Shown in pieces: positions 973 to 54,200 of a stretch of 64,000 bases of DNA. The stretch lies in the NCBI GenBank assembly GCA_035221665.1, contig CM069135.1, positions 39,742,001 through 39,806,000 on the forward strand, in the 5' to 3' direction. Numbering within the stretch: the first letter of the stretch is position 1; the number at the start of each line of letters is the position of its first letter. The notes under the pieces were generated by a model. That model saw only the letters and a program-made list of their open reading frames with translations, searched no databases and was not told the DNA's origin. A program made the translations under genes and the position numbers. The DNA comes from Okamejei kenojei (Eukaryota).

Positions 973-1246
973 AGTGCTAGAGCTGCTGCCTTACAGCCCC
1001 AGAGACTCGGGTTTGATCCTGACTATGGGTGCTGCCTGTTTAGAGTTTGTACGTTCTGCCCGTGGCCACATAGATTTTCTCCGAGAGCTCCTGTTTCCTC
1101 CCACACTCCAAAGACATACAGGTTTGTAGGCTAATTGGCTTGGTATTGTTGTAAATTGTCCCTAGTGTGTGCAGGATAGTGTAAGTGTGCGGGGATCGCT
1201 GGTCAGTGGGCCGAAGGGCCTGTTTCTCTAAACTATTAAACTAAAT
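973..1246 (+). mobile_element. tRNA-derived V-SINE (HE1-like)
   Basis: B-box-like GGGTTTGATCC, V-domain GTTTCCTCCCACACTCCAAAGAC, CR1-like tail GTGGGCCGAAGGGCCTGTTTC ending in CTAAA repeats. Confidence 0.9.
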
Positions 1247-2142: not shown

Positions 2143-3005
2143 CCAATTATGCCTCATGCCTCAATTATTATATTTCCTACCTAAATTATTTTCTTTCTTT
2201 CATCGGTCCCTATTCACTAATACCGATCATAATGACATTTGCCACCTTAACCATTATTCAATTAAAAGCCTTTTTGGATCAGGGAGTTAGAGTTTCTATA
2301 TATACAGCCTTTATTGGAAAAAGTGCGGTCCAGTAGTCCAACCAGTTTTCATCCAACTCACTGACAATCTGGATTTCTCCATTAAACATTTCCTTGAATT
2401 CCATTCACTGCTACAAAATTTAAAGAGATCTTGGTTATCATCCATCTTTTCGAGGCACGTTCATTTTGTCCAGTTCCCTTAAGTCAGAAACCTTAATCCT
2501 ATTATAGAGATAATTATGCTTTCTATCAAGTCACGCTACTGTGAATTATAAAAATAAAACACCCATATTTTGCATTAGCGGTCCGTGTTGACATTTAGGT
2601 CTCTCCGTTCATCGATAGTACAACATTGGCAGTGATGTGTGTGCACATTTATAAAATCTCAACAGTTTTCAGGTGAAACGTAAGACTGTGGCTCTGTCTG
2701 CCATGCATTCAAAGCAGATCAGAACTGTCAACTGACATTCCTTCCTTAACCTTCCCCAGCACAGAATATTATTGCTCAGTCATTTCCTGTGTGTGTAAAA
2801 TTACTGCCATGTTTCCATGAATAACAACTGTAACAGTATGCACTTGAATAACAAGGAAAAACATTATATATAATTTGCAAAATTAATCTCTTTGAAATGT
2901 GCAGGAGTCTCTGTCCATTACTGAATTGCAGAGAGATACATACTAAATCCAGTGTGTTCAATTTTGTATTTTCCTTTTTAACAGCTCAAATACAAAATTA
3001 CATAG

Positions 3006-3209
3006 TGTAGATGGTTTATATATGCAACCAATAACATAGTTACCTCAGTACCATTAACCCCACCTAGTTAACATCAATCATAACACCTTCCCCTTCCTGG
3101 GTACAGTTCAGTAGAAGAATGTAGCCAGTGCTTGAGGATGTATGTGATACCCTGTGCTATCATTAAAAGATGTTGCACACTTTAAGAGTTTGTGAATTGC
3201 TTGTTTACA
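3006..3209 (+). repeat. 5' LTR
   Basis: TG...CA termini, direct repeat of 4913-5116, ATTAAA poly(A)-like signal. Confidence 0.95.
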
Positions 3210-3259
3210 TGGTGTCAGAAGTGGGATGCGAATCCACACCTCCAATTGGAGTCCTGAAC
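3210..3259 (+). other. tRNA-Leu PBS extended into a ~50-nt reverse tRNA copy
   Basis: 18-nt PBS complementary to the tRNA-Leu(CAA) 3' end including CCA. It continues as a T-arm hairpin (GTGGG-ATGCGAA-TCCAC) and a variable-arm palindrome (CTCCAATTGGAG). Confidence 0.8.
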
Positions 3260-4865
3260 AAGCCGATTCACGCTGCCCCTGCCAGGCTGCAGCATATGAT
3301 GCTGCAGCTCCAGCGTTTCGATTTCGACATCATCTACAAGAAGGGCACCGAGATGCACATTGCGGACACCCTATCGTGCGCCCCAGGGACCTCCTGTGCT
3401 CGCCACCCCTACGAAACAGAGGACTTGCTCGTACTGGGCGTTAACTTTATTCCCACCAAGCAGCTACAGGTTTTGGCCGAGCACACCGCTGTCGATCCAG
3501 TTTTGCAGTGGCTCTCCTCTGTGATTAAAGCAGGGTGGCCAACAAAGCGCTCCGCTGCGTCGTCTGAAACACAGCCTTTCTTTTTGGTCCGCGACGAACT
3601 GGTGCTCCAGAATGACGCCATCGTCAAGGGACATAAAGTTGTAGTCCCGTCCTCCCTGTTTGACTTTTACTATTGCGCAGCCCATAGCGGACACCCTGGG
3701 GTCGATGCAACACTCGCCCACGCTCAGTGCCAATTCTACTGGCCTGGAATGGCCAAATATATACGAGACAGAGTTTCTGCCTGCTCCACGTGCAACAGTC
3801 TTGCTCCACACCAGCAGCGACAGCCCCTGCTGCAACAGCCTGCCCCTGCCTTGGCTTGGTCCTCGCTGGCTGCCGACATATTCGAGTGGCGTGGTAACCA
3901 CTACCTTGTCCTGGTCGACTCATACTCAAACTGGTTCGAAGTGGATTTACTGACATCCCTCACAACTCCGAACGCTGCAGAAACACTTCTCCACTTTTGG
4001 GTCCCCTGTCAGGCTGCAGACTGACAACGGCAGGCAGTTTACCAGCCGAGAATTCAAAAGTTTTGCCGACAAGTGGAATTTCGTGCATTTCACCAGCAGC
4101 CCAGAGTACCCACAGAGCAACGGCCTTGCAGAACGGGCCGTCCGCAGCGCCAAGCTTCTGATGGAACAGGCGAGACTGTCCAACTCTGATTTGTATTTGG
4201 ATCTCCTGAACCTCAGGAATGTTTCCAGAGATCCGGCCATGGGGTCACCTGCTCAGCGTCTGATGTCCAGAAGAACAAGATCTACCATCCCGATTACTCA
4301 GCGCCAGCTGCAACCTTGGGTGCTGGAGCCTGCCTCCGTGCAGAGGCGCATTCAAGAGAAACATGACAGCCAGCGGCGTTCCCACGATCGGTCGTGCAGA
4401 CCACTCGATCCTCTGTTGCCTGGACAGGTTGTTCGGTTGCAGACCGCCGGTGGTCACTCCCGTCTGGCTACCGTGGTTGGGGTGGCCGACTCACCTCGTT
4501 CGTATCTGGTCGACTATGAGGGTTCCATCTACCGAAGAAGCCGACAACACCTGCTTGCGGTTAATGAGCCGAAGCCGCAGCCCCCGGGGCCCTATGCCCC
4601 GCCACTCTCATACCAGCAGCCGGCTGCCGTCCCAGCTAGTGTTCCCTGCATGCCTCGGTCCCCATATCGAGTGCCTGGTTCCCCTCTGCGCGGGTCCCCT
4701 GTTGCCGGTCGCGGTTTTAACTCTCCTGTTTTTCCCACCCCACTGCCCTTCCCTGGTTCCCCAGCTGCCTCGTGTTCTCCTGTTTCTTCTGCTCTTTCGG
4801 GGGAAGGGGGAGACATCCGTACGCGGATTAGTAAGCCACCTGTTCGTTATGGCGATTTTGTTTAA
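3251..4865 (+). pseudogene. Gypsy pol remnant: RNase H C-terminus, connector, HHCC zinc finger, DDE integrase (one frameshift near 3970)
   Basis: ORFs 3170-4024 (KPIHAAPARLQ, HIADTLS, HSGHPG...CSTC, AAD) and 4083-4865 (SPEYPQSNGLAER). TDNGRQF lies in the second frame just upstream of 4083. Confidence 0.92.
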
Positions 4866-4912
4866 TTCTGTTGTTGTGACAACAATCTGTTTTGATTTTC
4901 TAAGGGGAAGGA

Positions 4913-5116
4913 TGTAGATGGTTTATATATGCAACCAATAACATAGTTACCTCAGTACCATTAACCCCACCTAGTTAACATCAATCATAACACCTTCCCC
5001 TTCATGGGTACAGTTCAGTAGAAGAATGTAGCCAGTGCTTGAGGATGAATGTGATACCCTGTGCTATCATTAAAAGATGTTGCACACTTTAAGAGTTTGT
5101 GAATTGCTTATTTACA
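4913..5116 (+). repeat. 3' LTR
   Basis: Follows the PPT (4902-4912); about 98.5% identical to the 5' LTR; followed by TSD CATAG. Confidence 0.95.
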
Positions 5117-5311
5117 CATAGCTTCTTCAACAGAGAAATATCTAAGTGTGTACAGACTACTTGTGCAAGTTAGTATGTTTCCTTGTTATAATTCAAAGTG
5201 AACTGAGTGTTTTACATATGTTTTCATAATAAATCACAATACTGCATCTTAAGTCATATTTAGACCGGTCTGCCTCCTCCAAAGTAAGGCTGTGGATTTC
5301 CTTCCTTAATG

Positions 5312-5945
5312 ACATAGAAACATAGAAATTAGGTGCAGGAGCAGGCCATTCAGCCCTTCGAGCCTGCACCACCATTCAATATGATCATGGCTGATCATCC
5401 AATTCAGTATCCTGTACCTGCCTTCTCTCCATACCCCCTGATCCCTTCAGCCACAAGGGCCACATCCAACTCCCTCTTAAATATGGCCAATGAATTGGCC
5501 TCAACTACCTTCTGCGGCAGAGAATTCCACAGATTCACCACTCTCTGTGTGAAAAACGATTTTCTCATCTCAGTCCTAAAAGACTTCCCCCTTATCCTTA
5601 AACTGTGACCCCTTGTCCTGGACTTCCCCAACATCAGGAACAATCTTCCTGCATCTAGCCTGTCCAACCCCTTAAGAATTTTGTAAGTCTCCATGAGATC
5701 ACCCCTCAATCTTCTAAATTCCAGCGAGTACAAGCCGAGTCTATCCAGTCTTTCTTCATATGGAAGTCGAGCCATCCCAGGAATCAGTCTGGTGAACCTT
5801 CTCTGTAATCCCTCTATGGCAAGAATGTCTTTCCTCAGATTAGGAGACCAAAACTGTACACAATACTCCAGGTGTGGCCTCACCAAGACCCTGTACAACT
5901 GCAGTAGAACGTCCCTGCTCTTGTACTCAAATCCTTTTGCTATGA
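5312..5945 (-). mobile_element. CR1 LINE 3' fragment (RT C-terminus and tail)
   Basis: ORF 5404-5955 (LYRVLVRPHLEYCVQFWSP...RTRGH...FFTQRVV); CATAGAAA tail repeats. Confidence 0.95.
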
Positions 5946-6404
5946 AAAAGAACATCAGTTAATGAGATTAACATCAGTTAATTGTTTCTAGAACAATCCA
6001 GCAATTTGAGAGTTCAGCTTTTTAATTAACTAATTGAATTCCACAGTTTATTCAGGTATAATTGGAACTCTTCATTGACTCACGTGACTGGGTTGCTTGT
6101 TAATTACAAACACACCAGTGCACAATTCCCCCTTCTTCAAGCAAGATCCCTTAATTTGTATTTTAGATAAGGTGTGCATAGTTAGGAGATAAGTAGCAAT
6201 TGAAATGTGACTGTTCCTCATTAGGAGCTAGTACACTTGGTTTACTGATGGTATTGGGTATGTGATGCAATGTACAGACCATATTGCAATAAAGCCAGCA
6301 GGAAATGCTTCCTCTTCAGATGTCTCATGTCTGGTCTTGATGTGGTAATGGCAGCCACTGATGGATAATTCACTTTGAAGCTGGCATCTGTCCAGCTGGC
6401 ATCT

Positions 6405-11192: not shown

Positions 11193-11490
11193 TGGTGCAA
11201 CAGAGTTACTGCCTTGCAGTGCCAGAGATCCATGTTTGATCCTGACTACGGGTATTGTCTATATGGAGTTTGTTAGTTCTCCCTGTGACCATGTGGCGTT
11301 TCTCTGGGTGCTCTGGTTTCCTCCCATATCCCAAAGATGTGATTTGTAGGTTAATTGGCCTCTGTAAATTGCCCCTAATGTGTAGGACGTGAAACTGGAA
11401 TAACATAGAACTAGTGTAAGGGTGATTGTTGGTCTGTGGGGATTCGATGAGCTGAAGGGCATGTTTCCACGATGTATCTTTAAACCTAAA
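11193..11490 (+). mobile_element. V-SINE (HE1-like)
   Basis: TTTGATCCTGACTACGGGT, CTCTGGTTTCCTCCCATATCCCAAAGA, tail GAAGGGCATGTTTCC. Confidence 0.85.
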
Positions 11491-18992: not shown

Positions 18993-20785
18993 GTAGACAA
19001 AAATGCTGGAGAAACTCAGCGGGTGAGGCAGCATCTATGGAGCAAAGGAAATGGGCAATGTTTCGGGTCGCGACCCCTCTTCAGAATAATGGGTGGGGGT
19101 TGGAAGAAGAAAGGTAGAGGTGGAGACAGTGGGCTGAGAGAGAGCTGAGAAGGGGAGGAGATAGTAAGGACTGCCTGAAATTAGAGGTCAATGTTCATAC
19201 TGCTGGGGTGCAAACTGCCCAAGTGAAATATGAGGTGCTGCTCCTCCAATTTACGGTGGTCCTCACTCTGGCCATGGAGGAGGCCCAGGACAGAAAGGTC
19301 GGATTCAGAATGGGAGGGGAAGTTGAAGTGCTAAGCCACCAGGAGATCAGGTTAGTTATTGCGAACCGAGTGGAGGTGTTGGGCGAAACGATCGGCAAGC
19401 CTACGCTTAGTCTCACCAATGTACAGCAGCTGACTTCTAGAGCAGCGGATGCAATAGATGAGGCTGGAGGAGGTGCCGGTGAACCTCTGCCGCACTTGGA
19501 AGGACTGCTTGGGTCCTTGAATGGAGTCAAGGAGGGAGGTAAAGTGACAAGTGTAGCATTTCTTGCAGTTGCAAGGGAAAGTGCCAGGTGAGGGAGTAAT
19601 ATGGGTGGGAAGGGAAAAATTGACTAGGGAGTTATGGAGGGATGGGTCTCTGTGGAAAGCAGACAGCAGAGGAGATGGGAAGATGTGGCAAGTGGTGGGA
19701 TCACATTGGAGGTGGCGAAAATGACGGAGGATTATTTGTTGTTCGTGATGGGTGGAAGGTGAGGACAAGGGGATTCTGCCCTTGTTACGAGTGGGGGGGG
19801 GGGGGGTGGGGAGAGAGCAGAGTCACTGGGTATAGAAGAGACCCTGGTGAGAGCCTCATCTATGGTAGAAGAGGGGAACCCCCATTCCCTGAAGAATGAG
19901 GACATCTCCGATGTCCTGGTGTGGAACACTTCATCCTGGGTGCAGATGCGGCGTAGACGGAGGAATTGGGAGTAGGGGATGGAGTCCTTACAGGAAGTAG
20001 GGTGGGAACAAGTGATGTCCAGATAGCCATGGGAGTCAGTGGGTTTATAGTAGATGTCGGTCAGTACTCTATCACCTGGGATGGAGATAGTGAGGTCAAG
20101 AAATGGTAGGGAAATGGTCCAAGTCTATTTGAGTGCCGGATGGAAGTTAGTGGCGAAATGGATGAAGTCAGTGAGTTGTGTGTGGGTGCAGGAGGTAGCA
20201 CCAATGGAGTCGTCGATGTAGCGGAGGTAGAGTTTGGGGATAGGGCCACGGTACAACTCGAACAAGGATTGTTTGACGTACCCTACAAAGAGGCAGGCAT
20301 AGCTAGGGCCCATGTGCGTGCCCATAGCTATACTTTGCATTTGGAGGAAATGGGAGGAGTCAAACGAAAAGCTAAGGGTAAGGACCAGCTCCACTACGCG
20401 GAGGAGAGTATCAGTAGACTGGGATTGGTTAGTTCTCTGTTCGAGGAAGAAACGGAGGGCTTTGAGATCCTCCTGGTGGGGGATGGAGGTGTAGAGTGAC
20501 TGGACATCCATGGCGAAGATGAAGGAATGGGGGCCTAAAAATCTGGAAGTCCTGGAGTCGACGAAGAGCGTGCAAGGTATCTTGAACATAGGTGGGGAGG
20601 GATTAAACCATGGGGGATTGGATGGAGTCGAGGTATGTGGAAATAAGTTCAGTGAGACACAGACAGGCAGAAACAATGGGTCTGCCAGGACAGTCAGGTT
20701 TTTGGGTTTGGGGGAGAAGGTAAAATCGGGCCGTGCGTGGCTGGGGAACGATGAGGTTGGAGGCTCGGGAGGGCAGAGAGGCGGT
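18993..20785 (-). mobile_element. Penelope-like element, 5'-truncated (RT, GIY-YIG and 3' terminal repeat)
   Basis: FYLLP..KPDCPGRPIVS, MDVQSLYTSIP, AMGTHMGPSYA, YLRYIDD, IYCIRC...YIGETKRRLADRFAQH. Confidence 0.95.
19056..19084 (-). ncRNA. Minimal type-I hammerhead ribozyme motif in PLE terminus
   Basis: Minus strand reads CTGAAGA-G-GGGTCGCGACCC-GAAAC-ATT: intact core boxes, stem II hairpin and vestigial stem III, as described for PLE hammerheads. Confidence 0.7.
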
Positions 20786-21099
20786 GTTGATTAATTGGGC
20801 TAGCTCTATTCGGTTTTCATAAATTATGACACAAGTTCTGACATCTGACACAAACAAAATTAATTTTAAAAGATTAAGACATTGGATAGTGAGCTCTTTG
20901 AGAGTGGAGAGCAGTCATCTTGCTGACAAAAGGTAATTTAACAAAATCGTGCAACAAGGTTTTTTTTGCTGGTTTAATGTGTACCCATTTGAGAAGGCTG
21001 GACATAGAGAGAAGCAAGTGTCCAAATGGCTGGGTAACAGGCAGAGCAACGAATGAAAGGAAGGCAAGGTATAACAGAGTGGCCTGTTCACACTGGCTG

Positions 21100-22164: not shown

Positions 22165-25100
22165 CACGAGGTAGTGCTTCCCGTGCCAGTCAAAGATATC
22201 AGCAGCCACTGATGACCATGGTAGAGAGGGAGCTGGCTGAGACAGCAGGGGTTGTTTTTGCTGGTGTGGTGCCTGCCTGTTACAGATCGCGCATGATTCT
22301 GTTTTCTCCCAAATATACTTGGTCATTCCGGGCCAGTAGATCATTTCTTTTGCACGTTGTAGGGTAACCTCCATGCCCGGGTGACCACCATGGATTTCCT
22401 TATAGTACTCGTTTCGCAGGGATGAGGGGAAGACCGTCTTGTGACCCTTGACAATCACTCCATCCTGTAGTACTAGTTCGTCACGTACCAGGAAGTAGGG
22501 TCGTAATTCAAAAGGGTTTTAGGCTGTTTGTTTGGCCACCCGCCTTTGATGATGGAAGTTAGCAGTTGGGAGGTTTTATCTGCAGCTGTGTGTTCGGCAA
22601 GGCGGCGCAAGTGGTTGGTGGGAACAAACGAGACTTTCAGGACGGAGAATTTGTCCTGTTCGAATGGGTGTTCGCTGGTGGTGCGTGGCGCTCTAGATTG
22701 AGTGTCTGCGATGTGCATGTCTTTCCCTTTTTGTAGACAATGTGAAAATCAAATCATTATAGCTACGTCATCATGCGTTGAAGTCTGGCTGGGGCAGCAT
22801 GGATCGGTTTGCTAAGGATAGTGACTAGTGGTTGAAGGTCAGTCTCTACCGTGAAGGTCTTGCCAAAAATAAAGTCTTTAAATTTCGAACAGGCGAAAAC
22901 CACGGCAAGCAGTTTCTTCTCTATCTGTGCGTAGCGTTGTTCAATATCAGTTAAGGTGCGCGATGCGTAGGATACAGGCATCACGTCGCTGTTGGAGGTT
23001 TGCAGGCATGCTGCGCCTAGTCCATACTGGGATGCATCGCAGGTGATTGTGACTGGCAGATTGATGTTGAAGTATGCCAGGGTTGGTGCACTAGCGAGCT
23101 GTAACTTTAAAGTCTTGTAAGCTTATTGATGCTGTGGGTACCAGGACCAGGTGTTGTCCTTGTGGGTTAATTGTCACAGTGGGGCTGCCAATTCTCTGAG
23201 ATTGGGGATGAATTTGCCCAAGTAGTTGACCATACCTAAAAATCGTTGTAAGCTGGTGACGTTGGTTGGTACTGGCAGCTCGTTAATCACTGCAGTCTTC
23301 AGCGGGTCAGGCTTTAACCAGTTGCTGGTGAACACGTAACCAACGTAAGTGACTTCTGGAACTCTGAACTTGCACTTCAGTGGGTTCAGTTTTAAATTAA
23401 TATCTCTGGCACGGTTCAACACCTGCCGTAGCTTGGCAACATGCTCGGTTGCGTCTCGGCCGTAAACTAGGATGTCGTCAACAATGATGGCACAAGGGTA
23501 TTCTGTGAACAGCTGTTCCATTGCGCGCTGGAAGACTTCACTAGCAGAGTTGGTACTGAAAGGCATTCTGAGAAATCGGTAGCGGCCGAACGGAGTAGCG
23601 AAAGTTATTAGCGCAGATGATGCACGGTCTAAAAGAGCTTTTGGCATCTAGGACTGAGAATACAGTTGCAATACCGATCCGTGCCGCTACGTCCTCAGTG
23701 GTTCTCATCGGGTAGTGTTCGCGTTTAATTGCTGTGTTCAAATCTTTAGGATTGATGCAGATGCGTAATTCCTTTTTGTCTTTCTTGGTGGTGATGACCA
23801 TGGTGGAGACCCAGTCTGACGGTTCGCTGCCTTCGGCAATAACTCCGATGGAGACCATACATTTGTGTTCATCGTGTATTTCCTCTCGCATGCCGTGAGG
23901 GACGTGGTGAGGTGCACGTACAATTAGGGTGACCGAATGGTCAATAGTGATCTTATATATTGTCGGTAACTTGCAGAGTTTGTCATCAAACAAGTCCTTA
24001 TAGTTGGATAATATTTGTTGTATTTGTTCCTCTGTTAGACAGAGTTTGTGGACAGCACTCCCGAAATAAACCAGACCCAAGTCATGGCATGCGTTGATGC
24101 CAAGCAAGGTTTCAGAACTTGGATGGGCAATGTAAAAAAGAGTAAGGTCTTTGTTGATGGTACATTTCAGATCAGCTTACCCAGTGGGTGTAGAATTGCT
24201 CCTCCATAAGCATGTAGAGTGGAGGAGTCTTTTTTTTCATGTGCTCAGTGGTTCTTATCTTGTTGAACACTTTGAGTGACATGACGTTTACTCTGGCGCC
24301 GGTATTGACTTTGGCGATCCGAGGTTTGTTAACGATTGTCATGGTCACCGCAGGATCAGTCATTTTGCCTGGAGTGCGCAGGTTTAGGGAAAGTACAGTA
24401 GACTCGGTGTCTGTGTTATCTGAGTCATTCCCGTGGGAAGATTCTTCCTGTTCATGGGAATCGGACGGGTCTTGTTGAATCCGGTGCACCTTTGTCCTTG
24501 AAGCTGTACTCCCTCTAGACTGACAACAATTAGCAAAGTGGTTGTGTTTCTTGCAATTATGACATACATTCCCATGGGCTACGCAAAATTAGCACCCCCT
24601 GGGTTGGAAATAGTTACAGTTAGAGCAGGCACATTTTGATCTTTGCAGGACGCATTGAGAAATCTTTGTGGAGAATAGCTAGCCTGATTCACATTAAGTT
24701 GTTGATGAGAGTTAACGCTATCAAAGTCAGCAAGTGGTGCTACAATCTCAGCCATCCGACAAGCATGAATCGTTTGCTCCAAAGTCAGTTCAGCGTTCTG
24801 CAACAGTTCGGCTCTTAACTTGCGGTCGCTTATTCCTCCCACAATTTTATCACGTACTAGCTCATTTGTCAACTCACCAAATCTGCATTGAGAGCTGATG
24901 TGTGTCACTGTTGCACTTGGGGGGGGGAAAAAATCTCGTCCTCTCGAGGATCCTCTCTAAACTTCCTCAGCAGAACCGTCGTCAATAATTTCAGCCGGCA
25001 CCACTACCAGACCATTCCCGTCTAGTTGAGCTAGTGCAAATCCAAAAGAGTCAGTGCGGATCATAGCTTCCGGACCCGCTAAATTCAACTGCAGCGATGC

Positions 25101-36891: not shown

Positions 36892-39800
36892 TCATAGAAA
36901 ATAGGTGCAGGAGTAGGCCATTCGGCCCTTCAAGCCTGCACTGCCATTCAATATGATCATGGCTGATCATCCAACACAGTATCCTGTACCTGCCTTCTCT
37001 CCATACCCCCTGATCCCTTTAGGCCACAAGGGCCACATCTAACTCCCTCTTAAATATAGCCGATGAACTGGCCTCTACTATCTTCTGTGGCAGAGAATTC
37101 CACAGACTCACCACTCTCTGTGTGAAAAATGATCTTCTCATCTCGGTCCCAAAAGACTTCCCCCTTATCCTTAAACTGTGACCCCTTGTCCTGGACTTCC
37201 CCAACATTGGGAACAATCTTCCTGCATCTAGCCTGTCCAACCCCTTAAGAATTTTGTAAGTTTCTATAAGATCCCCTCTCAATCTCCTAAATTCAGAGAG
37301 TATAAACCGAGTCTATCCAGTCTTTCTTCATAAGACAGTCCTGACATCCCAGGAATCAGTCTGGTGAACCTTCTCTGCACTCCCTCTATGGCAATAATGT
37401 CCTTCCTCAGATTTGGAGACCAAAACTGTACGCAATACTCCAGGTGTGGCCTCACCAAAACCCTGTACAACTGCAGTAGAACCTCCCTGCTCTTGTACTC
37501 AAATCCTTTTGCTATGAATGCCAACATACCATTCGCTTTCTTCACAGCCTGCTGCACCTGCATGCCTACTTTCAATGACTGGTGTACCATGACACCCAGG
37601 TCTCGTTGCATCTCCCCTTTTCCTAATCGGCCACCATTCATATAATAATCTACCCTCCTGTGGATAACCTCACATTTATCCACATTATACTACATCTGCC
37701 ATGCATTTGCCCACTCACCCAACCTATCCAAGTCACCTTGCAGCCTCCTAGCATCCTCCTCACAGCTAACGCTGTCCCCCAGCTTCGTGTCATCCGCAAA
37801 CTTGGAGATGTTGCATTCAATTCCCTCATCCAGATCATTAATATATATTGTAAATAGCTGGGGTCCCAGCACTGAGCCCTGCGGTACCCCACTAGTCACA
37901 GCCTGCCATTCTGAAAAGGACCCGTTTACTCCTACTCTTTGCTTCCTGTCTGCTAGCCAGTTCTCTATCCACATCAATACCGAACCCCCAATACCGTGTG
38001 ATTTAAGTTTGTATGCTAATCTCTTATGTGGGACCTTGTCGAAAGCCTTCTGTAAGTCCAGATATAACACATCCACAGGTTCTCCTTTATCCACTCTACT
38101 AGTTACATCCTCGAAAAATTTTAAAGGATTCGTCAGACATGATTTAACTTTCATAAATCCATGCTGACTTTGTCAAATGATTTTACTGCTATCCCATCTT
38201 TAATAACTGACTAGCATTTTCCCCACTACCGATGTTAGACTAACTGGTCTGTAATTCCCCGTTTTCTCTCTCCCTCCCTTTTTTAAAAGTGGGGTTACAT
38301 TAGCTACCCTCCAATCCTCAGGAACTACTCCAGAATCTAAAGAGTTTTGAGAAATTATCACTAATGCATCCACTATTTCTGGGGCTACTTCTTTAAGTAC
38401 TCTGGGATGCAGCCTATCTGGCCCTGGGGATTTATCGGCCTTTAATCCATTCAATTTACCTAACATCACTTCCTGGCTAACCTGGATTTCACTCAGTTCC
38501 TCCATCTCATTTGACCCCCGGTCCCCTGCTATTTCCGGCAGATTATTTATGTCTTCCTTAGTGAAGACAGAACCAAAGTAGTTATTCAATTGGTCTGCCA
38601 TGTCCTTGTTCCCCATGATCAATTCACCAGTTTCTGACTGCAAGGGAACTACGTTTGTTTTAACTAACCTTTTTCTCTTCACATATCTATAAAAACTTTT
38701 GCAGTACGTTTTTATGTTCCCTGTTTTCTTTCATAATCTATTTTCCCTTTCCTAATTAAGCCCTTTGTCCTCCTCTGTTGGACTCTGAATTTCTCCCAGT
38801 CCTCTGGTAGGCTGCTTTCTCTGGCTAATTTGTATGCTTCATCATTTGCTTTGATACTATCCCTGATTTCCCTTGTTATCCATGGCTGCACTACCTTCCC
38901 TGATTTATTCTTTTGCCATACTGGGATGAACAATTGTTGTAGTTCATCCATGCAGTCTTTAAATGCCTTCCATTGCATATCCACCGTCAACCCTTTAAGA
39001 ATCACTTTCCAGTCTATCTTGGCCAATTCACGTCTCATACCCTCAAAGTTACCTTTCTTTAAGTTCAGAACCCTTGTTTCTGAATTAACAATGTCACTCT
39101 CCATCCTAATGAAGAACTCAACCATATTATGGTCACTCTTGCCCAAGGGGCCATGCACAACAAGACTGCTAACTAACCCTTCCTCATTACTCAGTACCCA
39201 GTCTAGAATAGCCTGCTCTCTCGTTGGTTCCTCTACATGTTGGTTTAGAAAACTATCCCGTATACATTCCAAGAAATCCTCTTCCTCAGCACCCCTGCCA
39301 ATTTGATTCACCCAATCTATATGTAGATTGAAGTCACCCATTATAACTGTTTTACCTTTGTTGCACGCATTTCTAATTTCATGTTTGATGCCATCCCCAA
39401 CTCCACTACTACTGTTAGGTGGCCCTTTACACAACTCATACTAGCGTTTTCTGCCCTTTAGTGTTTCGCAGCTCTACCCATATCGATTCCACATCCTCCA
39501 AGCTAATGTCCTTCCTTTCTATTGCGTTAATCTCCTCTCTAACCAGCAACACTACTCCACCTCCTTTTCCTTTCTGTCCATCCCTCCTGAATATTGAATA
39601 TCCCTGGATATTCAGCTCCCAGCCTTGGTCACCCTGGAGCCATGTCTCCGTGATCCCAAGTATATCATATTCATTAATAACTATCTGCACATTCAACTCG
39701 TCCACCTTATTACGAATGCTCCTTGCATTAAGACACAAAGACTTCAGGCTTGTTTTTTACAATACTCTTACCCCTTATACAATTACGTTGAAAAGTGGCC

Positions 39801-41111
39801 CTTTTTGATTTTTGCCCTGGATTTTTTTTGCCTGCCACTTTTACTTTTCACCTTGCTACCTATTGCTTCTACCCTCATTTTACATCCCTCTGTCTCTCTG
39901 CTCATGCTCCATCTCCCTGCCACATTAGTTTAAATCCTCCCTGACAGCACTAGCAAACACTCCCCCAAGGACATTGGTTCCCTTCAAGCCCAGGTGCAGA
40001 CCGTCCTGTTTGTACTGGTCCCACCTCCCCCTTGCACCATTTTTCAAGCCACATGCTCATCTGCCATATCCTCCTATTTCTACTCTGACTAGCACGTGGC
40101 ACTGGTAGGAGTCCAGAGATTATTACCTTTGAGGTCCTACTTTTAAGTTTATCTCCTAGCTCCCTAAATTCGCCTTGTAGGACCTCATCCTGTTTTTTAC
40201 CTATATCGTTGGTGCCAATGTGCACCACGACAGCTGGCTGTTCACCCTCCCCCTCCAGAATGTTCTGCAGCCGTTCAGTGACATCCCTGACCCTTGCACC
40301 AGGGAGGCAACATACCATCCTGGAGTCTCGTTTGCGGCCGCAGAAACGCCTATGTGTTCCCCTTACTATTGAATCCCCTATTACAATAGCCCTTCCACTC
40401 TTTTTTCTCCCCTCCTGTGCCGCAGAGCCACCAATGGTGCCATGAACTTGGCTGCTGCTGCCTTCCCCTGATGAGCCATCTCCCCCAACAGTATCCAAAA
40501 TGGTATATCTGTTTAGGAGGGAGATGACCGCAGGAGACTCCTGCACCACCTGCCTACTGCTACGCTGGCTAATGGCCACCCGTTCCCTTTCTGTCCACTT
40601 AACTTGTGGTGTGACCAACTCGCTGTATGTGCTATTCACGAGCTTCTCAGCATCGTGGATGCTCCAGTATGAATCCAACCGCAGCTCCAATCATTCAATG
40701 CGGTCTGCCAGGAGCTTCAGCTGGACACACTTCCTGCAAACGTAATCACCAGGGACACCAACCATATCCCTGATCTCCCACATGTTGAAGGATGAGCAAA
40801 CCATGGGGCCGATCTCAAATGACATGGTTTGCCCCCAAATTAAATCAACTCACACTATAAAAATCTTAATCCTTTAAACTAACCTTTACTGAAAAGCACT
40901 GAGCCCTTAGCGCAAACCAGGGGTTGCACCCAATCAGCTGCTTCCACCAATCAGTGGCTTCCACCTGAACACTTGTGTGGAATGTTACAGGTTTGGGTCC
41001 TCCTCTTGCTCCAATGGCTCCTGGGCCTCTGTTAAAACAAAGCCCCACGCTTGATTTTTAAACTCACCGCCTGGAGACTCCTCCTCTTGCTCCAACGGCT
41101 CCTGGGCCTCT
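36892..41111 (-). mobile_element. Full-length CR1 LINE (5'UTR repeats, ORF1, ORF2, tail) with several frameshifts
   Basis: ORF1 39950-~40800 (Cys motifs, GDSIVR, HIGTND); ORF2 ~37019-39740 (CLNARS, ITETWL, GDFN, SDH, QGSVLGP, FADD); CATAGAAA tail. Confidence 0.95.
39950..40800 (-). pseudogene. CR1 ORF1p (zinc finger, coiled coil, SGNH esterase)
   Basis: AIVIGDSIVRG...CLPGAR...VVVHIGTNDIG...ISGLLPVP. Confidence 0.9.
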
Positions 41112-42385: not shown

Positions 42386-44155
42386 TGTGGTGCCACCCGG
42401 TGGTTAGACCACCTGTCTTCGAACCCTTGGTAGTCGGGGGTGGGGTCAAGTGACTGGGTGAAGGCGGGAAGCAGTTGTCACAAGGTTTAGTGATGTGCCC
42501 TAGTAAAAGTATGGAGACCAGGGTCAACCCTCCCCCATTCGCATGTGTGTTGATCTCTTTACCTGAGCAATAAAGTTCTCTTTTGTTTTTGCCACGCGTG
42601 GCTCGTTTATTCGCCCACCATATTGGTGACCCCGACGATCCATTTTGCATTTCATACATGTTCACAGCCAACGACCAACCTCAACAGCCCGATGTTGCCG
42701 ACATGGCAGCCCTGCGGGTGCTACTGTCCTGCGTGTCTCCACTGGTCAACTGCGGCCTATTGTTCTGGCTGCCTGGCGCCGGCGGGTGTTTGCCGTCCTC
42801 CACGGGTTGACGCACTCTTCCATCCGGTCCATGATTGCGCTGGTGGCGGCCCATTTCATGTGGCATGGTTTGCGCAAGCAGGTTGGTAACTGGGCCCGGG
42901 CGTGTGTCCAGCAGTCCAAGGTCCAGCGGCACGTCCGGGCACCTGTTCAGGTGTTTGCCGTGTCACATCAATGGTTTGATCACGTGGATATCGTGGGTCC
43001 GCTGCCTCTGTCCCGGGTCGTCACGCATCTCCTCACGTTGGTGGATCGTTTTACGCGGTGGCCAGAAGCTGTTCCGCTGACCGATACCTCTGCTGCGTCC
43101 TGTGCCTGTGCCCTTGCTGCCCATTGGATTGCTCGTTTCCGTGTGCCTGTGGACATTTCCTCGGACCGGGAGCCTCGGTTCACTTCTGAGTTATGGTCGG
43201 CTATGGCTCGCCTGTTGGGGGTTCAGTTCCACCATACTACGGGCCTACCATCCCCAGTCGAATGGTTTGGTGGAGCGCTTTCACCGGCATTTGATGACCG
43301 CCCTCCAGGCACCACTTACCGGGCCAGAGTGGATGGACGTTACCTTGGGTGTTGCTGGGAATCTGCACTGCCCCAAGGAGGATTTGGCTTCCTCATCGAC
43401 GGAGTTGGTGTTTGGTGCTCCGCTTGCGGCTCCGGGGGATTTTGTTCCGGGTTGCAGGAACCGCCTTCCTCGGTGTTGGTTTGCGGCAGAAGGTGGGCAT
43501 GCTTGCTCTGGTTCCGACGTCTCGCCTTCGCACAGTCCAGCTGCTCCTCAGGATTGTGCTTTTGTGTTCCTGCGCTGTGACGCGCATCGCACGCTGCTGC
43601 AGCAGCCTTGCAAGGGGCTCTTCCATGTGCTGCAGAGGGGTCTTCCGACTTTTGTTTCAGACATGAGGTGACTGACATGAGACTGTGTCGGTGGCTGGGT
43701 TGAAGCCTGCTCATGTCGACCTGATTCAAGCTGTATTGGGGCCCTGCCTCGTCGTCGGGGGCGTCCGAGGTCCTGCCCGCTCCCGCCTTCACCTACCTCG
43801 GGGGAGTCCCCTGTGTGGGGGGGGGGGGGAGGAGGAATGTGTGTTCGAGGTCCGGCCGCCTCGTTCGTCAACCCTTTTGGTTTCGTGCTTCGGGTTCTGG
43901 GGGGGGTGGGGGGAGATCCTGCGGCGCCACCCGGTGGTTAGGCCACTTTTATTTGAACCCTTGGCAGTCGGGGGTAGGGTAACGTGACTGGGTAATGGTG
44001 GGAAGCAGTTGTCACGAGGTTCAGGGGTGTGCCCTAGTATAAGTATGGAGGCCTGGGTCAGCCCTTCCCCCATTCGCTTGTCTGCTAATCTCTTTACCGG
44101 AGCATAAAGTTCTCTTTGTTTTCACCACGCGTGGCTCATTTATTCGCCCACCATA
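42386..44155 (+). mobile_element. Integrase-only Gypsy LTR element (CsRN1-like lineage)
   Basis: LTRs 42386-42622 and 43920-44155 (about 85-90% identical by eye); 4-bp TSD ACAA; PBS TGGTGACCCCGACG (tRNA-Trp); G-rich PPT; HVDIVGPLP, DRFTRWPEA, SDR, YHPQSNGLVERFHR. Inserted into an old CR1 tail. Confidence 0.92.
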
Positions 44156-48870: not shown

Positions 48871-50940
48871 CATATAACAATTACAGCACGGAAACAGGCC
48901 CTCTCGGCCCTTCCAGTCCGTGCCGACCATTTGTTTTCCCCTAGTCCCATCTACCTGCACTCAGACCATACCCCTCCATTCCCTTCACGTCCATATACCT
49001 ATCCACTTTACTTTTAAATGTTAAAATCGATCCTGCCTCCACCACCTCTGCTGGAAGCTCATTCCACACAGCCACCACCCTTTGAGTAAAGAAGTTCCCC
49101 CTCACGTTACCCCTAAACTTCTGTCCCTTAATTCTCATGTCATGCCCTCTTGTTTTCAATCTTCCCTACCCTCAATGGGAAAAGCTTATCCACGTCTATC
49201 CCTTTCATCATTTTAAAGACCTCAATCAAGTCCCCCCTTAACCTTCTGCGCTCCAAAGAATAAAGACCTAACTTGTTCAACCTTTCTCTGTAACATAGTT
49301 GCTGGAACCCTGGCAACATTCTAGTAAATCTCCTCTGTACTCTCTCTATTTTGTTGACATCCTTCCTATAGCTAGGCGACCAAAATTGTACACCATACTC
49401 CAGAATTGGTCTTACCAATGCCTTGTACAAATTTTAACATTACTTCCCTACTCCTATATTCAATGCTCTGATTTATAAAGGCCAGCACACCAAAGGCTTT
49501 CTTTACCACCCTATCTACATGCGATTCCACCTTCAGGGAACTATGCACAGTTATTCCTAGATCCCTCTGTTCCACAGCATTCCTCAATTCCCTACCATTT
49601 ACCATGTACGTCCTATTTTGATTTGTCCTGCCAAGATGTAGCACTTCACACTTATCAGCATTAAACTCCATCTGCCATCTTTCAGCCCACTTTTCCAAAT
49701 GGCCCAAATCTCTCTGTAGACTTTGAGAATCTACTTCATTATCCACAATACCACCTATCTTAGTATCATCTGCATACTTTACTTATCCAATTTTCCACCC
49801 CATCATCCAGATCATTGATGTACATGACAAACAACAGTGGACCCAACACAGATCCCTGAGGCACCCCACTGGTCACCGGCTTCCAACCTGACAAAACAGC
49901 CATCCACCATTTACTCTCTGACATCTCCCATTCAGCCACTGTTGAATCCATCTTGCTACTCCGCCATTAACACCCAAAGATTGAACCTTCTGAACCAACC
50001 TTCCATGGGGAACCTTGTCAAAGGCCTTACTGAAATCCATATAGACAACATCCACTGCTTTACCCTCATCAATTTCCCTAGTTACCGCTTCAAAAAAATT
50101 CAAGAAGGTTTGTCAAACATGACCTTCCAGGCACAAATCCATGTTGGACTGTTCCTGATCAGACCCTGTTTATCCAGATGCTTATATATATTATCTCTAA
50201 GTATCCTTTCCATTAATTTGCCCACCACTGACGTCAAACTAATAGGTCTATAATTGCTAGGTTTATTCTTTGAACCCTTTTTTAAACAATGGAACAACAT
50301 GCGCAGTACGCCAATCCTCCGGCACTATTCCCGTTTCTAAATGACATTTGAAATATTTCTGTCATAGCTCCTGCTATTTCTACACTAACTTCCCTCAATG
50401 TCCTAGGGAATATCCTGTCAGGACCTGGAGACTTATCCACCTTTATATTTTTTCAAAAGTGTCAGTACTTCCTCCTCTTTGAATCTCATAGTTTCCATAG
50501 CTACTCTACTTTTTTCCCTTACCTCACAGAGTTCAATATCCTTCTCCTTGGTGAATACCGAAGAAAATAAATTGTTCAATATCTCCCCCATCTCTTTTGG
50601 CTCTGCAGATAGCTGTCCATTCTGGTTCTCTAATGGTCTAATTTTATCCCTCGTTATCCTTTTGCTATTAATATAGCTGTAGAAACCCTTTGGATTTACT
50701 TTCACCTTTCTTGCCAAAGCAACCTCATATCTTCTTTTAGCCTTCCTAATTTCTTTCTTAAGATTCTTTTTACATTCTTTATACTCCTCTAGCACCTCAT
50801 TTACTCCATGCCTCCTATAATTATTGTAGATATCTCTCTTTTTTCGAAACAAGTGTCTAATTTCCCTTGAAAACCATGGCTCTTTCCAATTTTTACTATT
50901 TCCTTTCAACCTAACAGGGACATAAAGATTCTGTACTCTA
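48866..50940 (-). mobile_element. Young CR1, 5'-truncated, inserted into older CR1
   Basis: Near-identical to 15154-15985; TAAACCAT duplicated at 48866-48873 and 50943-50950. Confidence 0.95.
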
Positions 50941-51341
50941 TGTAAACCATGTTGACTTTGTTTATTTAATTTTAAACTGGAAATTATGGAAAATAGTGCT
51001 GCATGAAGATTGATGTGCTGAGGAGTGTTCTGTACACACAATGTATATCCAAATGGAGGTGCCCGATCTCATTTACAGAAAGGTGCAATATGACCTGGAA
51101 ATAGTACATTCACATTCTCCTCTGGGTTACATAAATTTAATCACTGAGCACAGTAAAATGCAGTTTATTGTGATCTAATTTCTTGAGGTGAATGAAACCA
51201 AGATCTGGGGTGGACAAAATACTGGAGTAACTCAGCGGGCAAGCAGCATCTCTGGAGATTAGGAATGCATCTGCTGATCTTTCCTGCACAAAACCAAGAT
51301 CTGCCCATCTCCTCCCATGACGTTCAGCTGAACCATAATTC

Positions 51342-53344: not shown

Positions 53345-54200
53345 GCCCCCCCCCTCACATTCCCCCCTCTCCTCCCCCCTCGTACCTCCCGTCAAGTCCT
53401 CTCACCTCGACCTCCCCTCCACCCCTCATTTCCCCCCCCCCCCCCTCCCCCCCCCCCTCATTTCCCCCCCCTCATTTTCCCCCCCCCTCATTTCCCCCCC
53501 CACTATTTCCCCCCCCATCATCCCCCTCATTTCCCCCCCCCTCGTTTCACCCCCCCCCTCGCACCCCCCCCCCCTTTTCATTTCATTCCCCCCCCTCATT
53601 CCCCCCCCTATGTCCCCCCCCCCATCCCCTCGTTTCCCATTCCCCCCCCTCCATTTCCCCCTCAATTCCCCTCCCCCCCCTCAGTTCCCCCCCCCTCATT
53701 TCCCCCCTCATTTCATTCCCCCGTTTCCCCCCCCCCCCCCCTCATCCCCCCCCATTTCCCCCCCCTCATTCCCCCCCCCTCATTCCCCCTCCATTTCCCA
53801 CCCCCCTCCCCCCCCCATCCCCTCATTCCCCCCCCCCCTCATTCCCCCCATTTCCCCCCCCCCCCATCCCCCCCCATTCCCCTCCCCTCATCCTCCTCCC
53901 CTCATCCCCCCGTCCCCCTCATCTCCTCCCCCCCCGTTCCATCCCCTCCCCCTATCCCCCCCTCATCCCCCCCCCATCCTCCCCCCCATCCTCCCCTATC
54001 TCATCCCCCCCCATTCCTCTCCCCCCTCATCCTCCCCCCCCATCCCTCTCCCCCCTCTTTCTCCCCCCCCATCCTCCCCCCCCCATCCTCCCCCCCCCCC
54101 CATCCCCCCACTTCCTCCCCTCCCCTCACTTCCCCCATCCTCCTCCCCTCACTTCCCCCCCCATCCTCGTCCCTCTATTTCCCCCATCCTCCTCCCCTCA
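53345..54200. repeat. C-rich minisatellite, irregular (C4-10)TCAT(T) units
   Basis: About 850 bp of CCCCCCCTCATTT-like repeats with extreme C/G strand skew. Confidence 0.95.

What the first reader, a model, noticed from the sequence alone, without database searches (positions are those of the whole stretch)
3210..3275. Primer tRNA read-through captured in an LTR element: ~50 nt of reverse tRNA-Leu replaces gag-PR-RT
Seen: after the LTR the sequence is TGGTGTCAGAAGTGGGAT-GCGAATCCACACCTCCAATTGGAGTCCTGAAC. It keeps a T-arm hairpin (GTGGG-7nt-TCCAC) and a variable-arm palindrome (CTCCAATTGGAG), then runs directly into pol (VLNKPIHAAPARLQ). From memory, the reverse complement of vertebrate tRNA-Leu(CAA) is TGGTGTCAGAAGTGGGATTCGAACCCACGCCTCCATTGGAGACCAGAAC, about 5 mismatches and 1 indel over 50 nt. 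Established: plus-strand strong-stop DNA normally ends at m1A58 after 18 nt. Here the first mismatch is exactly at nt 19 (3228, opposite m1A58), and similarity ends near position 37 (m1G37 in tRNA-Leu, an RT block). Inference: RT read through m1A58 with misincorporation, stalled at the anticodon loop, and jumped via CCTGAAC/CCAGAAC microhomology into pol, deleting gag-PR-RT in a single step. That would be a genomic record of tRNA modifications.
Basis: partly seen in the sequence, partly recalled or inferred. Interest (0 to 1): 0.85.

Follow-up and report, generated by a model that had tools for sequence, protein, structure and literature searches.

The report
Retrotransposons fossilise tRNA modifications genome-wide
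This broken jumping gene, like hundreds of others in the same genome, carries an over-long copy of the host tRNA that likely primed its copying, and the copying errors and end points pile up at three tRNA positions that are likely methylated, so the genome likely holds a readable record of RNA modifications.

Summary
Confirmed, and far larger than one locus. The 2.1-kb Ty3/gypsy-type element (LTRs 3006-3209, 4913-5116; 5-bp target duplication) carries 42 nt of antisense host tRNA-Leu(CAA) (3210-3251), joined to the end of RNase H, about 2.6 kb downstream in longer relatives. Gag-bearing relatives have only a short, mismatched primer site, so the tail is not ancestral. A 32-nt pattern finds 377 places; 99 of the first 100 are such tails, not tRNA genes, with 87 different junctions and 33 LTR-end clusters. 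Opposite A58, 55 of 99 copies differ from the gene; opposite C47d, 49 of 69; two control positions differ in 3 and 4 of 99. Of 20 copies reaching position 38, 18 end there, before G37. All 17 gene copies read carry A58 and C47d. Junctions share short overlaps (mean 3.7 nt, null 0.83). Best reading: plus-strand strong-stop DNA over-copies its primer, misreads m1A58 and probably m3C47d, stops at m1G37, and mis-anneals inside the element. Corrections: this copy's last 8 nt are pol, its exact overlap is zero, and the modifications were not measured. Ten literature searches found no report of such a genomic record.

The parts
3001..3005 (+). left target-site duplication (5 bp)
   Evidence: identical to 5117-5121
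3006..3209 (+). 5' LTR, 204 bp, TG...CA ends
   Evidence: 3 differences from the 3' LTR
3210..3227 (+). 18-nt perfect antisense copy of mature tRNA-Leu(CAA) positions 76-59, CCA included; replaces the family's short native primer site
   Evidence: host genes lack CCA; native site
3228..3228 (+). non-templated G opposite A58 (likely m1A58 misread)
   Evidence: 17 of 17 gene copies read have T here; 55 of 99 element copies differ
3229..3251 (+). read-through copy of T-arm and variable arm (tRNA positions 57 to 45); differences at 3233 and 3238 look like later decay
   Evidence: background 21 of 918 positions
3245..3245 (+). non-templated A opposite C47d (likely m3C47d misread)
   Evidence: 17 of 17 gene copies have G; 49 of 69 long element copies differ; no gene with the variant found
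3252..3259 (+). first 8 nt of the pol acceptor; 6 of 8 also match tRNA positions 44-37
3252..4865 (+). pol remnant: end of RNase H, integrase zinc domain and core, with a frame change near 3954-4024
   Evidence: ORFs; Integrase_H2C2 and rve; position in longer relatives
4902..4912 (+). polypurine tract
   Evidence: seen directly before the 3' LTR
4913..5116 (+). 3' LTR
5117..5121 (+). right target-site duplication

Best explanation
This is an integrated, internally deleted Ty3/gypsy-type element carrying 42 nt of host tRNA-Leu(CAA) copy, likely made when plus-strand strong-stop DNA copied its primer past A58 and then joined the wrong place in the element. Shown: the tail, its origin in mature tRNA, the deletion, the target duplication, hundreds of like copies with different junctions, misread letters at A58 and C47d, and ends just before G37. 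Inferred: (1) the family's own primer site is short and mismatched, so any strong-stop DNA that carries 18 or more nt of tRNA copy cannot pair properly with it and is normally the discarded product described for Ty1 and Ty3; (2) RT often passes m1A58 and m3C47d by putting in a wrong base and is blocked at m1G37; (3) the tailed DNA is rescued by pairing a few 3' bases with an unfinished minus strand (deletion, as here) or with plus-sense RNA or DNA (inversion); (4) the double-stranded product keeps both LTR ends and is integrated in the germ line.
For: Mature template: 92 of 99 copies begin with the exact CCA complement, which the genes lack; one copy (L118) runs across the spliced exon joint to nt 60, and its acceptor does not supply those letters. 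Not ancestral: in a sample picked by LTR alone, 11 of 16 other 5' LTRs carry the short native site and the gag leader, 5 of 16 the tRNA-type site, 4 of them mis-joined; of 29 other copies with the full 18 nt, 1 continues into the native leader, 20 jump at about nt 18-20 and 8 read through 30 nt or more. A second family: native match about 13 nt, 6 native, 6 tRNA-type mis-joined, 1 other of 13. Independent events: 87 junction classes in 99 copies, 33 LTR-end clusters. Site-specific errors: nt 19 T44/A38/G10/C7; nt 36 A43/G20/T3/C3; controls 3 and 4 of 99; in a BLAST-picked sample 17 of 27 at nt 19 against 21 of 918 elsewhere; one copy per class gives the same picture; both isodecoders show it. 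Ends: 18 of 20 copies that reach nt 49 stop there; 11 of 99 end at nt 35. Overlaps: 28 of 44 read-through junctions share 3 nt or more with the acceptor, null 8%. Integration: 22 of 26 copies with both LTRs in hand have a 5-bp duplication. m1A58, m3C47d and m1G37 are the known RT-disturbing marks of vertebrate leucine tRNAs (PMC5066629, PMC11417395, passages); the Ty3 dead-end product is in PMC5371799, section 2.2.
Against: The modifications were not measured in this host. m3C47d is reported for Leu-CAG and Ser, not Leu-CAA, in the passages read. Position 38 is also the first base of the 3' exon, so the nt-49 stop could be run-off. This copy has zero exact overlap, as do 7 of 44 read-through junctions; 22 of 81 family junctions mapped poorly or not at all. 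The 99-copy sample is the first 100 of 377 places and is conditioned on an exact pattern to nt 35, so shorter tails and background there are not measured by it. 4 of 26 copies lack a clean duplication. The ten ends at nt 42 fall to 6 after shared junctions are merged and are not taken as a modification stop.
Confidence: 0.87

Rival explanations
1. Same read-through, but the stop at nt 49 is run-off from an unligated 3' exon or a 3' tRNA half used as primer, not a block at m1G37.
For: The genes have their intron right after G37, so nt 49 is exactly the 3' exon boundary; only 2 of 20 copies go further.
Against: L118 crosses the spliced joint; m1G37 gives strong RT stops in all human leucine isodecoders examined (PMC5066629, passages); mature tRNA should far outnumber splicing halves (general knowledge).
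Confidence: 0.15
2. The change opposite C47d comes from C-to-U editing or deamination, or from tRNA genes missing from the assembly, not from m3C.
For: 43 of the 49 non-templated letters are the single change expected from C-to-U; assemblies can miss tRNA genes.
Against: 6 of 69 show the two other letters and 11 of 99 end just before the site; 17 of 17 gene copies have C, and exact searches for the variant found 4 places, all element junctions; the site is not a CpG; 47d is a known m3C position.
Confidence: 0.2
3. The long tail is an inherited, extended primer site of a non-autonomous sub-family.
For: 10 junction classes hold more than one copy; some share the nt-19 letter, so limited re-copying or segmental duplication occurs.
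Against: 87 classes in 99 copies; copies at one junction can differ at nt 19 (L006/L015, L022/L024; L151/L164); shared junctions sit at 4-10 nt overlaps that would attract repeated events; gag-bearing copies lack the tail.
Confidence: 0.03
4. DNA-level recombination or gene conversion with a genomic tRNA gene, pseudogene or SINE.
For: tRNA-Leu(CAA) genes and pseudogenes exist in the genome.
Against: CCA present, always flush with the LTR end, always antisense, non-genomic letters at two fixed sites, one spliced copy.
Confidence: 0.02

Closest known systems
Over-extended plus-strand strong-stop DNA of HIV-1 (products ending at positions 55, 54 and 37) and the primer over-extension sequence (PMC13191261, PMC8599865; passages read)
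   Same: RT copies the primer past A58; ends are set by tRNA modifications, the last at position 37.
   Different: There these are minor products and those reaching 37 are described as unable to complete transfer or integrate; here tails of 35-60 nt were rescued, integrated and fixed hundreds of times, with the misread letters kept.
PPT-recycling model of Ty1 and Ty3 (PMC5371799 section 2.2 read; PMC7472051 passages; the original, PMC1170264, was not held)
   Same: Ty3/gypsy element whose own primer site is inherited, while the tRNA-bearing first strong-stop DNA is a dead-end product.
   Different: Here the tRNA-bearing product does reach the genome: 5 of 16 and 6 of 13 sampled 5' ends in two families carry it, nearly all with a rearranged interior. 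Recycling itself was not tested here.
Deletions from errors in strand transfer in retroviral vectors (Pulsinelli and Temin 1991; only the title seen, in the reference list of PMC9278108)
   Same: By its title, large deletions caused by faulty strand transfer in one round of replication.
   Different: Laboratory vector, not a natural genome-wide record; whether it reports copied tRNA past A58 could not be read.
Misincorporation-based tRNA sequencing (DM-tRNA-seq PMC5066629, mim-tRNAseq PMC8062790, tRAM-seq PMC11417395, m1A signature PMC4787781; passages read)
   Same: Wrong bases and stops at m1A58, m3C47d and m1G37.
   Different: Here the reading was made in vivo by retrotransposon RTs and stored in the chromosome; 47d in Leu-CAA is not among the sites named in the passages read.
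Helenus and Ajax TRIMs (PMC10886601, parts 1-3 of 6 read)
   Same: Non-autonomous LTR elements that hold tRNA-derived sequence.
   Different: There the tRNA-like piece is inside the LTR as a conserved Pol III promoter; here it is antisense, outside the LTR, of variable length and made anew in each event.

Membership tests
Ty3/gypsy LTR retrotransposon | Two LTRs with TG...CA ends and a 4-6 bp target duplication | tested here: met
   relatives
Ty3/gypsy LTR retrotransposon | pol order RT, RNase H, integrase | tested here: met
   Pfam on natural open stretches of relative L215 and of the window
Ty3/gypsy LTR retrotransposon | RT closer to Ty3 than to retroviruses | tested here: met
   best PDB matches are Ty3 RT, E 1e-59, against 2e-22 or weaker for retroviral RTs; no tree built
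Ty3/gypsy LTR retrotransposon | Clade within Ty3/gypsy; recognisable gag and protease | tested here: inconclusive
   first ORF of L215 has no Pfam match; gag and protease are inferred from position
Over-extended plus-strand strong-stop product | LTR end flush with an antisense copy of the mature primer, CCA included | tested here: met
   92 of 99 exact CCA; genes lack it
Over-extended plus-strand strong-stop product | Errors and ends at RT-disturbing positions | tested here: met
   A58, C47d, G37
Over-extended plus-strand strong-stop product | The positions are chemically modified in this host | not testable with these tools
   one search listed only assembled contigs, no raw small-RNA reads
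Ty1/Ty3 PPT-recycling pathway | Primer site inherited from the element, not from the tRNA | tested here: inconclusive
   11 of 12 sampled copies with the native leader keep the mismatched site, 1 has the tRNA version; fits, but retrovirus-like partial conversion also occurs (L135, L250, L268)
Helenus-type TRIM | tRNA-derived promoter inside both LTRs, under 1 kb, no coding remnant | tested here: not met
   tail lies outside the LTR, once; element is 2.1 kb with a pol remnant
Inherited extended primer site | Same extension in gag-bearing copies | tested here: not met

The most novel reading that the evidence does not exclude
Animal genomes hold a datable archive of germ-line tRNA modification: every LTR family with a short native primer site leaves tailed copies whose misread letters and end points map m1A, m3C and m1G on its primer, here predicting an unreported m3C47d in tRNA-Leu(CAA); and rescue of the 'dead-end' strong-stop DNA is a main source of deleted and inverted copies, so that a perfect 18-nt primer site marks an aberrant copy, not an intact one.
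Probability: 0.6. Interest if true: 0.9.

Novelty: new variant of a known kind. Interest (0 to 1): 0.82.

Why it matters
It would be in vivo evidence, from hundreds of independent germ-line events, on how a retrotransposon RT treats m1A58 and other marks of its primer, a question mostly studied in vitro and in HIV. RNA modifications could be read, and roughly dated by LTR divergence, from DNA alone in species without tRNA data. It makes the Ty1/Ty3 dead-end model testable in an animal genome and gives a mechanism for a sizeable share of non-autonomous copies (4 of 16 and 6 of 13 sampled 5' ends in two families). It also warns that a perfect 18-nt primer site can point annotation to rearranged copies.

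Tried and rejected
Rfam and ARAGORN on the window: nothing relevant. ARAGORN in bacterial mode missed or mis-named the intron-bearing genes; they were read by eye. A stop before U44 (nt 42) was considered and dropped: 10 ends fall to 6 after merging shared junctions. CpG decay explains the few changes at nt 20 and 29, not those at nt 19 or 36. No link between misreads at nt 19 and nt 36 (Fisher p 0.59). The first TSD count (14 of 29) used rough LTR ends; the count with exact ends covers the window's family only (22 of 26). Sequencing-run search gave only contigs, nearly all with small shares; no reads were examined, so there is no check from raw reads or from other species. (28 of 30 with the short site, 1 with one base restored, 1 without LTR) is biased because its query held most of the native site; one search is the unbiased count. 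Literature searches found no report of genomic copies recording primer modifications; the library lacks most subscription papers, PMC1170264 and PMC248936 were not held, and no supplements were read. PMC6088434, PMC7197481 and PMC9278108 passages added nothing on this point.

Full report
Setting. The window lies in a 2.76-Gb genome. The finding sits in a 2,111-bp element with 204-bp LTRs at 3006-3209 and 4913-5116, 3 differences between them, a 5-bp target duplication and a polypurine tract. Inside is a pol remnant with integrase domains. Relatives with the same LTR run up to about 4.7 kb, have RT, RNase H and integrase in Ty3/gypsy order and match Ty3 RT best among solved structures. The window copy resumes about 2.6 kb into such relatives, late in RNase H.

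The observation. Host tRNA-Leu(CAA) genes were found by pattern and by similarity. They carry an intron after G37 and no CCA. All 17 gene or pseudogene copies in which both sites were printed have A58 and C47d (10, 7; position numbers counted by me from the 3' end under the standard scheme). Window 3210-3259 aligns to the gene without a gap, with differences at nt 19, 24, 29, 36, 43 and 46. The last two are explained by pol: from 3252 on, the window equals the family's pol, and the best break is 3251/3252 with no shared letter. So 42 nt are securely tRNA. The next 8 pol letters match tRNA in 6 places, so a longer copy that paired imperfectly and was corrected to pol remains possible but is not shown.

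Not ancestral. Copies with the gag leader have a short site: 7 perfect nt, then a missing base and mismatches (28 of 30, a sample biased by its query). In 30 loci picked by LTR sequence alone, 13 were 3' or solo LTRs, 1 was the window's 5' end, and of the other 16, 11 had the native site and 5 the 18-nt tRNA version; 4 of the 5 were joined to a wrong place and 1 of these read through. Of 29 other copies picked for LTR end plus full 18 nt, 1 continued into the native leader, 20 jumped at about nt 18-20 and 8 read on for 30-50 nt. A second family has a native match of about 13 nt: of 13 primer-bearing copies besides the query, 6 were native, 6 tRNA-type and mis-joined (in three junction classes), 1 other.

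Genome-wide. A 32-nt pattern spanning tRNA positions 73 to 47e, free at three places, has 377 matches and 0 for the reversed control. All of the first 100 places were read: 1 is a tRNA gene, 99 are tails; 92 have the exact CCA complement, 5 have two of three letters, 2 have fewer and lack a clear LTR end. They fall into 33 LTR-end clusters, 35 copies in the window's family, and 87 junction classes.

Errors. Opposite A58: T 44, A 38, G 10, C 7. The two other free places differ in 3 and 4 of 99. In a sample picked by BLAST, 17 of 27 copies differ at nt 19 and 21 of 918 other positions differ. Opposite C47d, among 69 copies that run to nt 41 or beyond: A 43, G 20, T 3, C 3. One copy per class gives T39/A32/G9/C7 and A39/G15/T3/C2. 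Exact searches for a gene carrying the variant at 47d gave 1 and 3 places, all element junctions.

Ends. 11 of 99 tails end at nt 35, just before C47d; 18 end at nt 49, just before G37; 2 go a little further. One copy from another search, L118, crosses the spliced exon joint to nt 60, with letters its acceptor lacks, which shows a spliced template. Because nt 49 is also the exon boundary, run-off from a tRNA half is a live rival for that stop.

Junctions. Of 81 window-family junctions, 59 mapped well onto natural copies: 36 sense (deletions) and 23 antisense (inversions); 22 mapped poorly or not at all. For the 44 read-through ones the overlap with the acceptor averages 3.7 nt, 28 have 3 or more and 7 have none; random places give 0.83 and 8%. 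Recurring junctions sit on 4-10 nt overlaps and can differ at nt 19. Of 26 copies with both LTRs in hand, 22 have a 5-bp duplication, so these are integrated products.

Mechanism. In retroviruses plus-strand strong-stop DNA ends before m1A58; minor products end at 55, 54 and 37, and longer copies are held unable to finish (PMC13191261, PMC8599865, passages). In Ty1 and Ty3 the tRNA-bearing product is displaced and accumulates as a dead end, while the element's own site is inherited (PMC5371799 section 2.2; PMC7472051 passages). I infer that these families work like Ty3: short native site, tailed product without a proper partner. The tailed product is sometimes rescued by a few 3' base pairs with an unfinished minus strand or a plus-sense template, and is then integrated. 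m1A, m3C and m1G cause wrong bases and stops in RT-based tRNA sequencing, at 58, 47d and 37 of leucine tRNAs (PMC5066629, PMC11417395, PMC8062790, PMC4787781, passages); 47d is named there for Leu-CAG and Ser only. My odds: read-through and mis-transfer 0.95, m1A58 0.9, m3C47d 0.75, m1G37 as the block 0.8.

Novelty. The parts are known; their sum, as far as ten searches of an incomplete library show, is not. Helenus differs in place and role (PMC10886601). Three unchecked notes of this scan describe single tRNA-copy scars in other genomes; they are leads to generality, not support. Limits: one genome, one primer tRNA, 100 of 377 places read, no reads, no direct modification data.

Noticed in passing
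window family junctions: Junctions that stop near nt 18 are mostly antisense (12 of 15), read-through junctions mostly sense (33 of 44). Unexplained; a few hotspots and the sampling may account for it.
   Followed up: partly
L011, L019, L026, L059, L201, L238: 6 of 81 tails join sequence not found in family copies; L011 is a 954-bp element with both LTRs and a target duplication whose insert looks coding, possibly a captured host RNA.
   Followed up: no
L089:904-1040: Two identical 49-nt tails 85 nt apart, separated by a piece of LTR end.
   Followed up: no
L135, L250, L268: Copies with the native leader whose primer site is partly or wholly converted to the tRNA sequence.
   Followed up: partly
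L071: 6.6-kb element with the window family's LTRs that holds a segment only 68% alike to the window's pol and matching the second family: likely template switching between families.
   Followed up: no
G000:C13 63.17-63.20 Mb (L076-L079): Cluster of intron-bearing tRNA-Leu(CAA) genes and pseudogenes; two isodecoders differ at 47b and both appear in the tails (43 and 26 of 69).
   Followed up: partly
window 979-1193, 1911-2114, 11202-11337: Three copies of a short interspersed repeat, two of them inverted to each other.
   Followed up: no
window 23541-24176 (-) and 42630-43580 (+): RT-like and integrase-like fragments of other LTR elements, judged from the translations.
   Followed up: no
window 5404-5958, 20125-20790, 38712-40690, 50433-51068 (all -): Fragments that read like non-LTR retrotransposon proteins (likeness recalled, not searched).
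   Followed up: no
window 53420-54200: C-rich low-complexity tandem tract.
   Followed up: no
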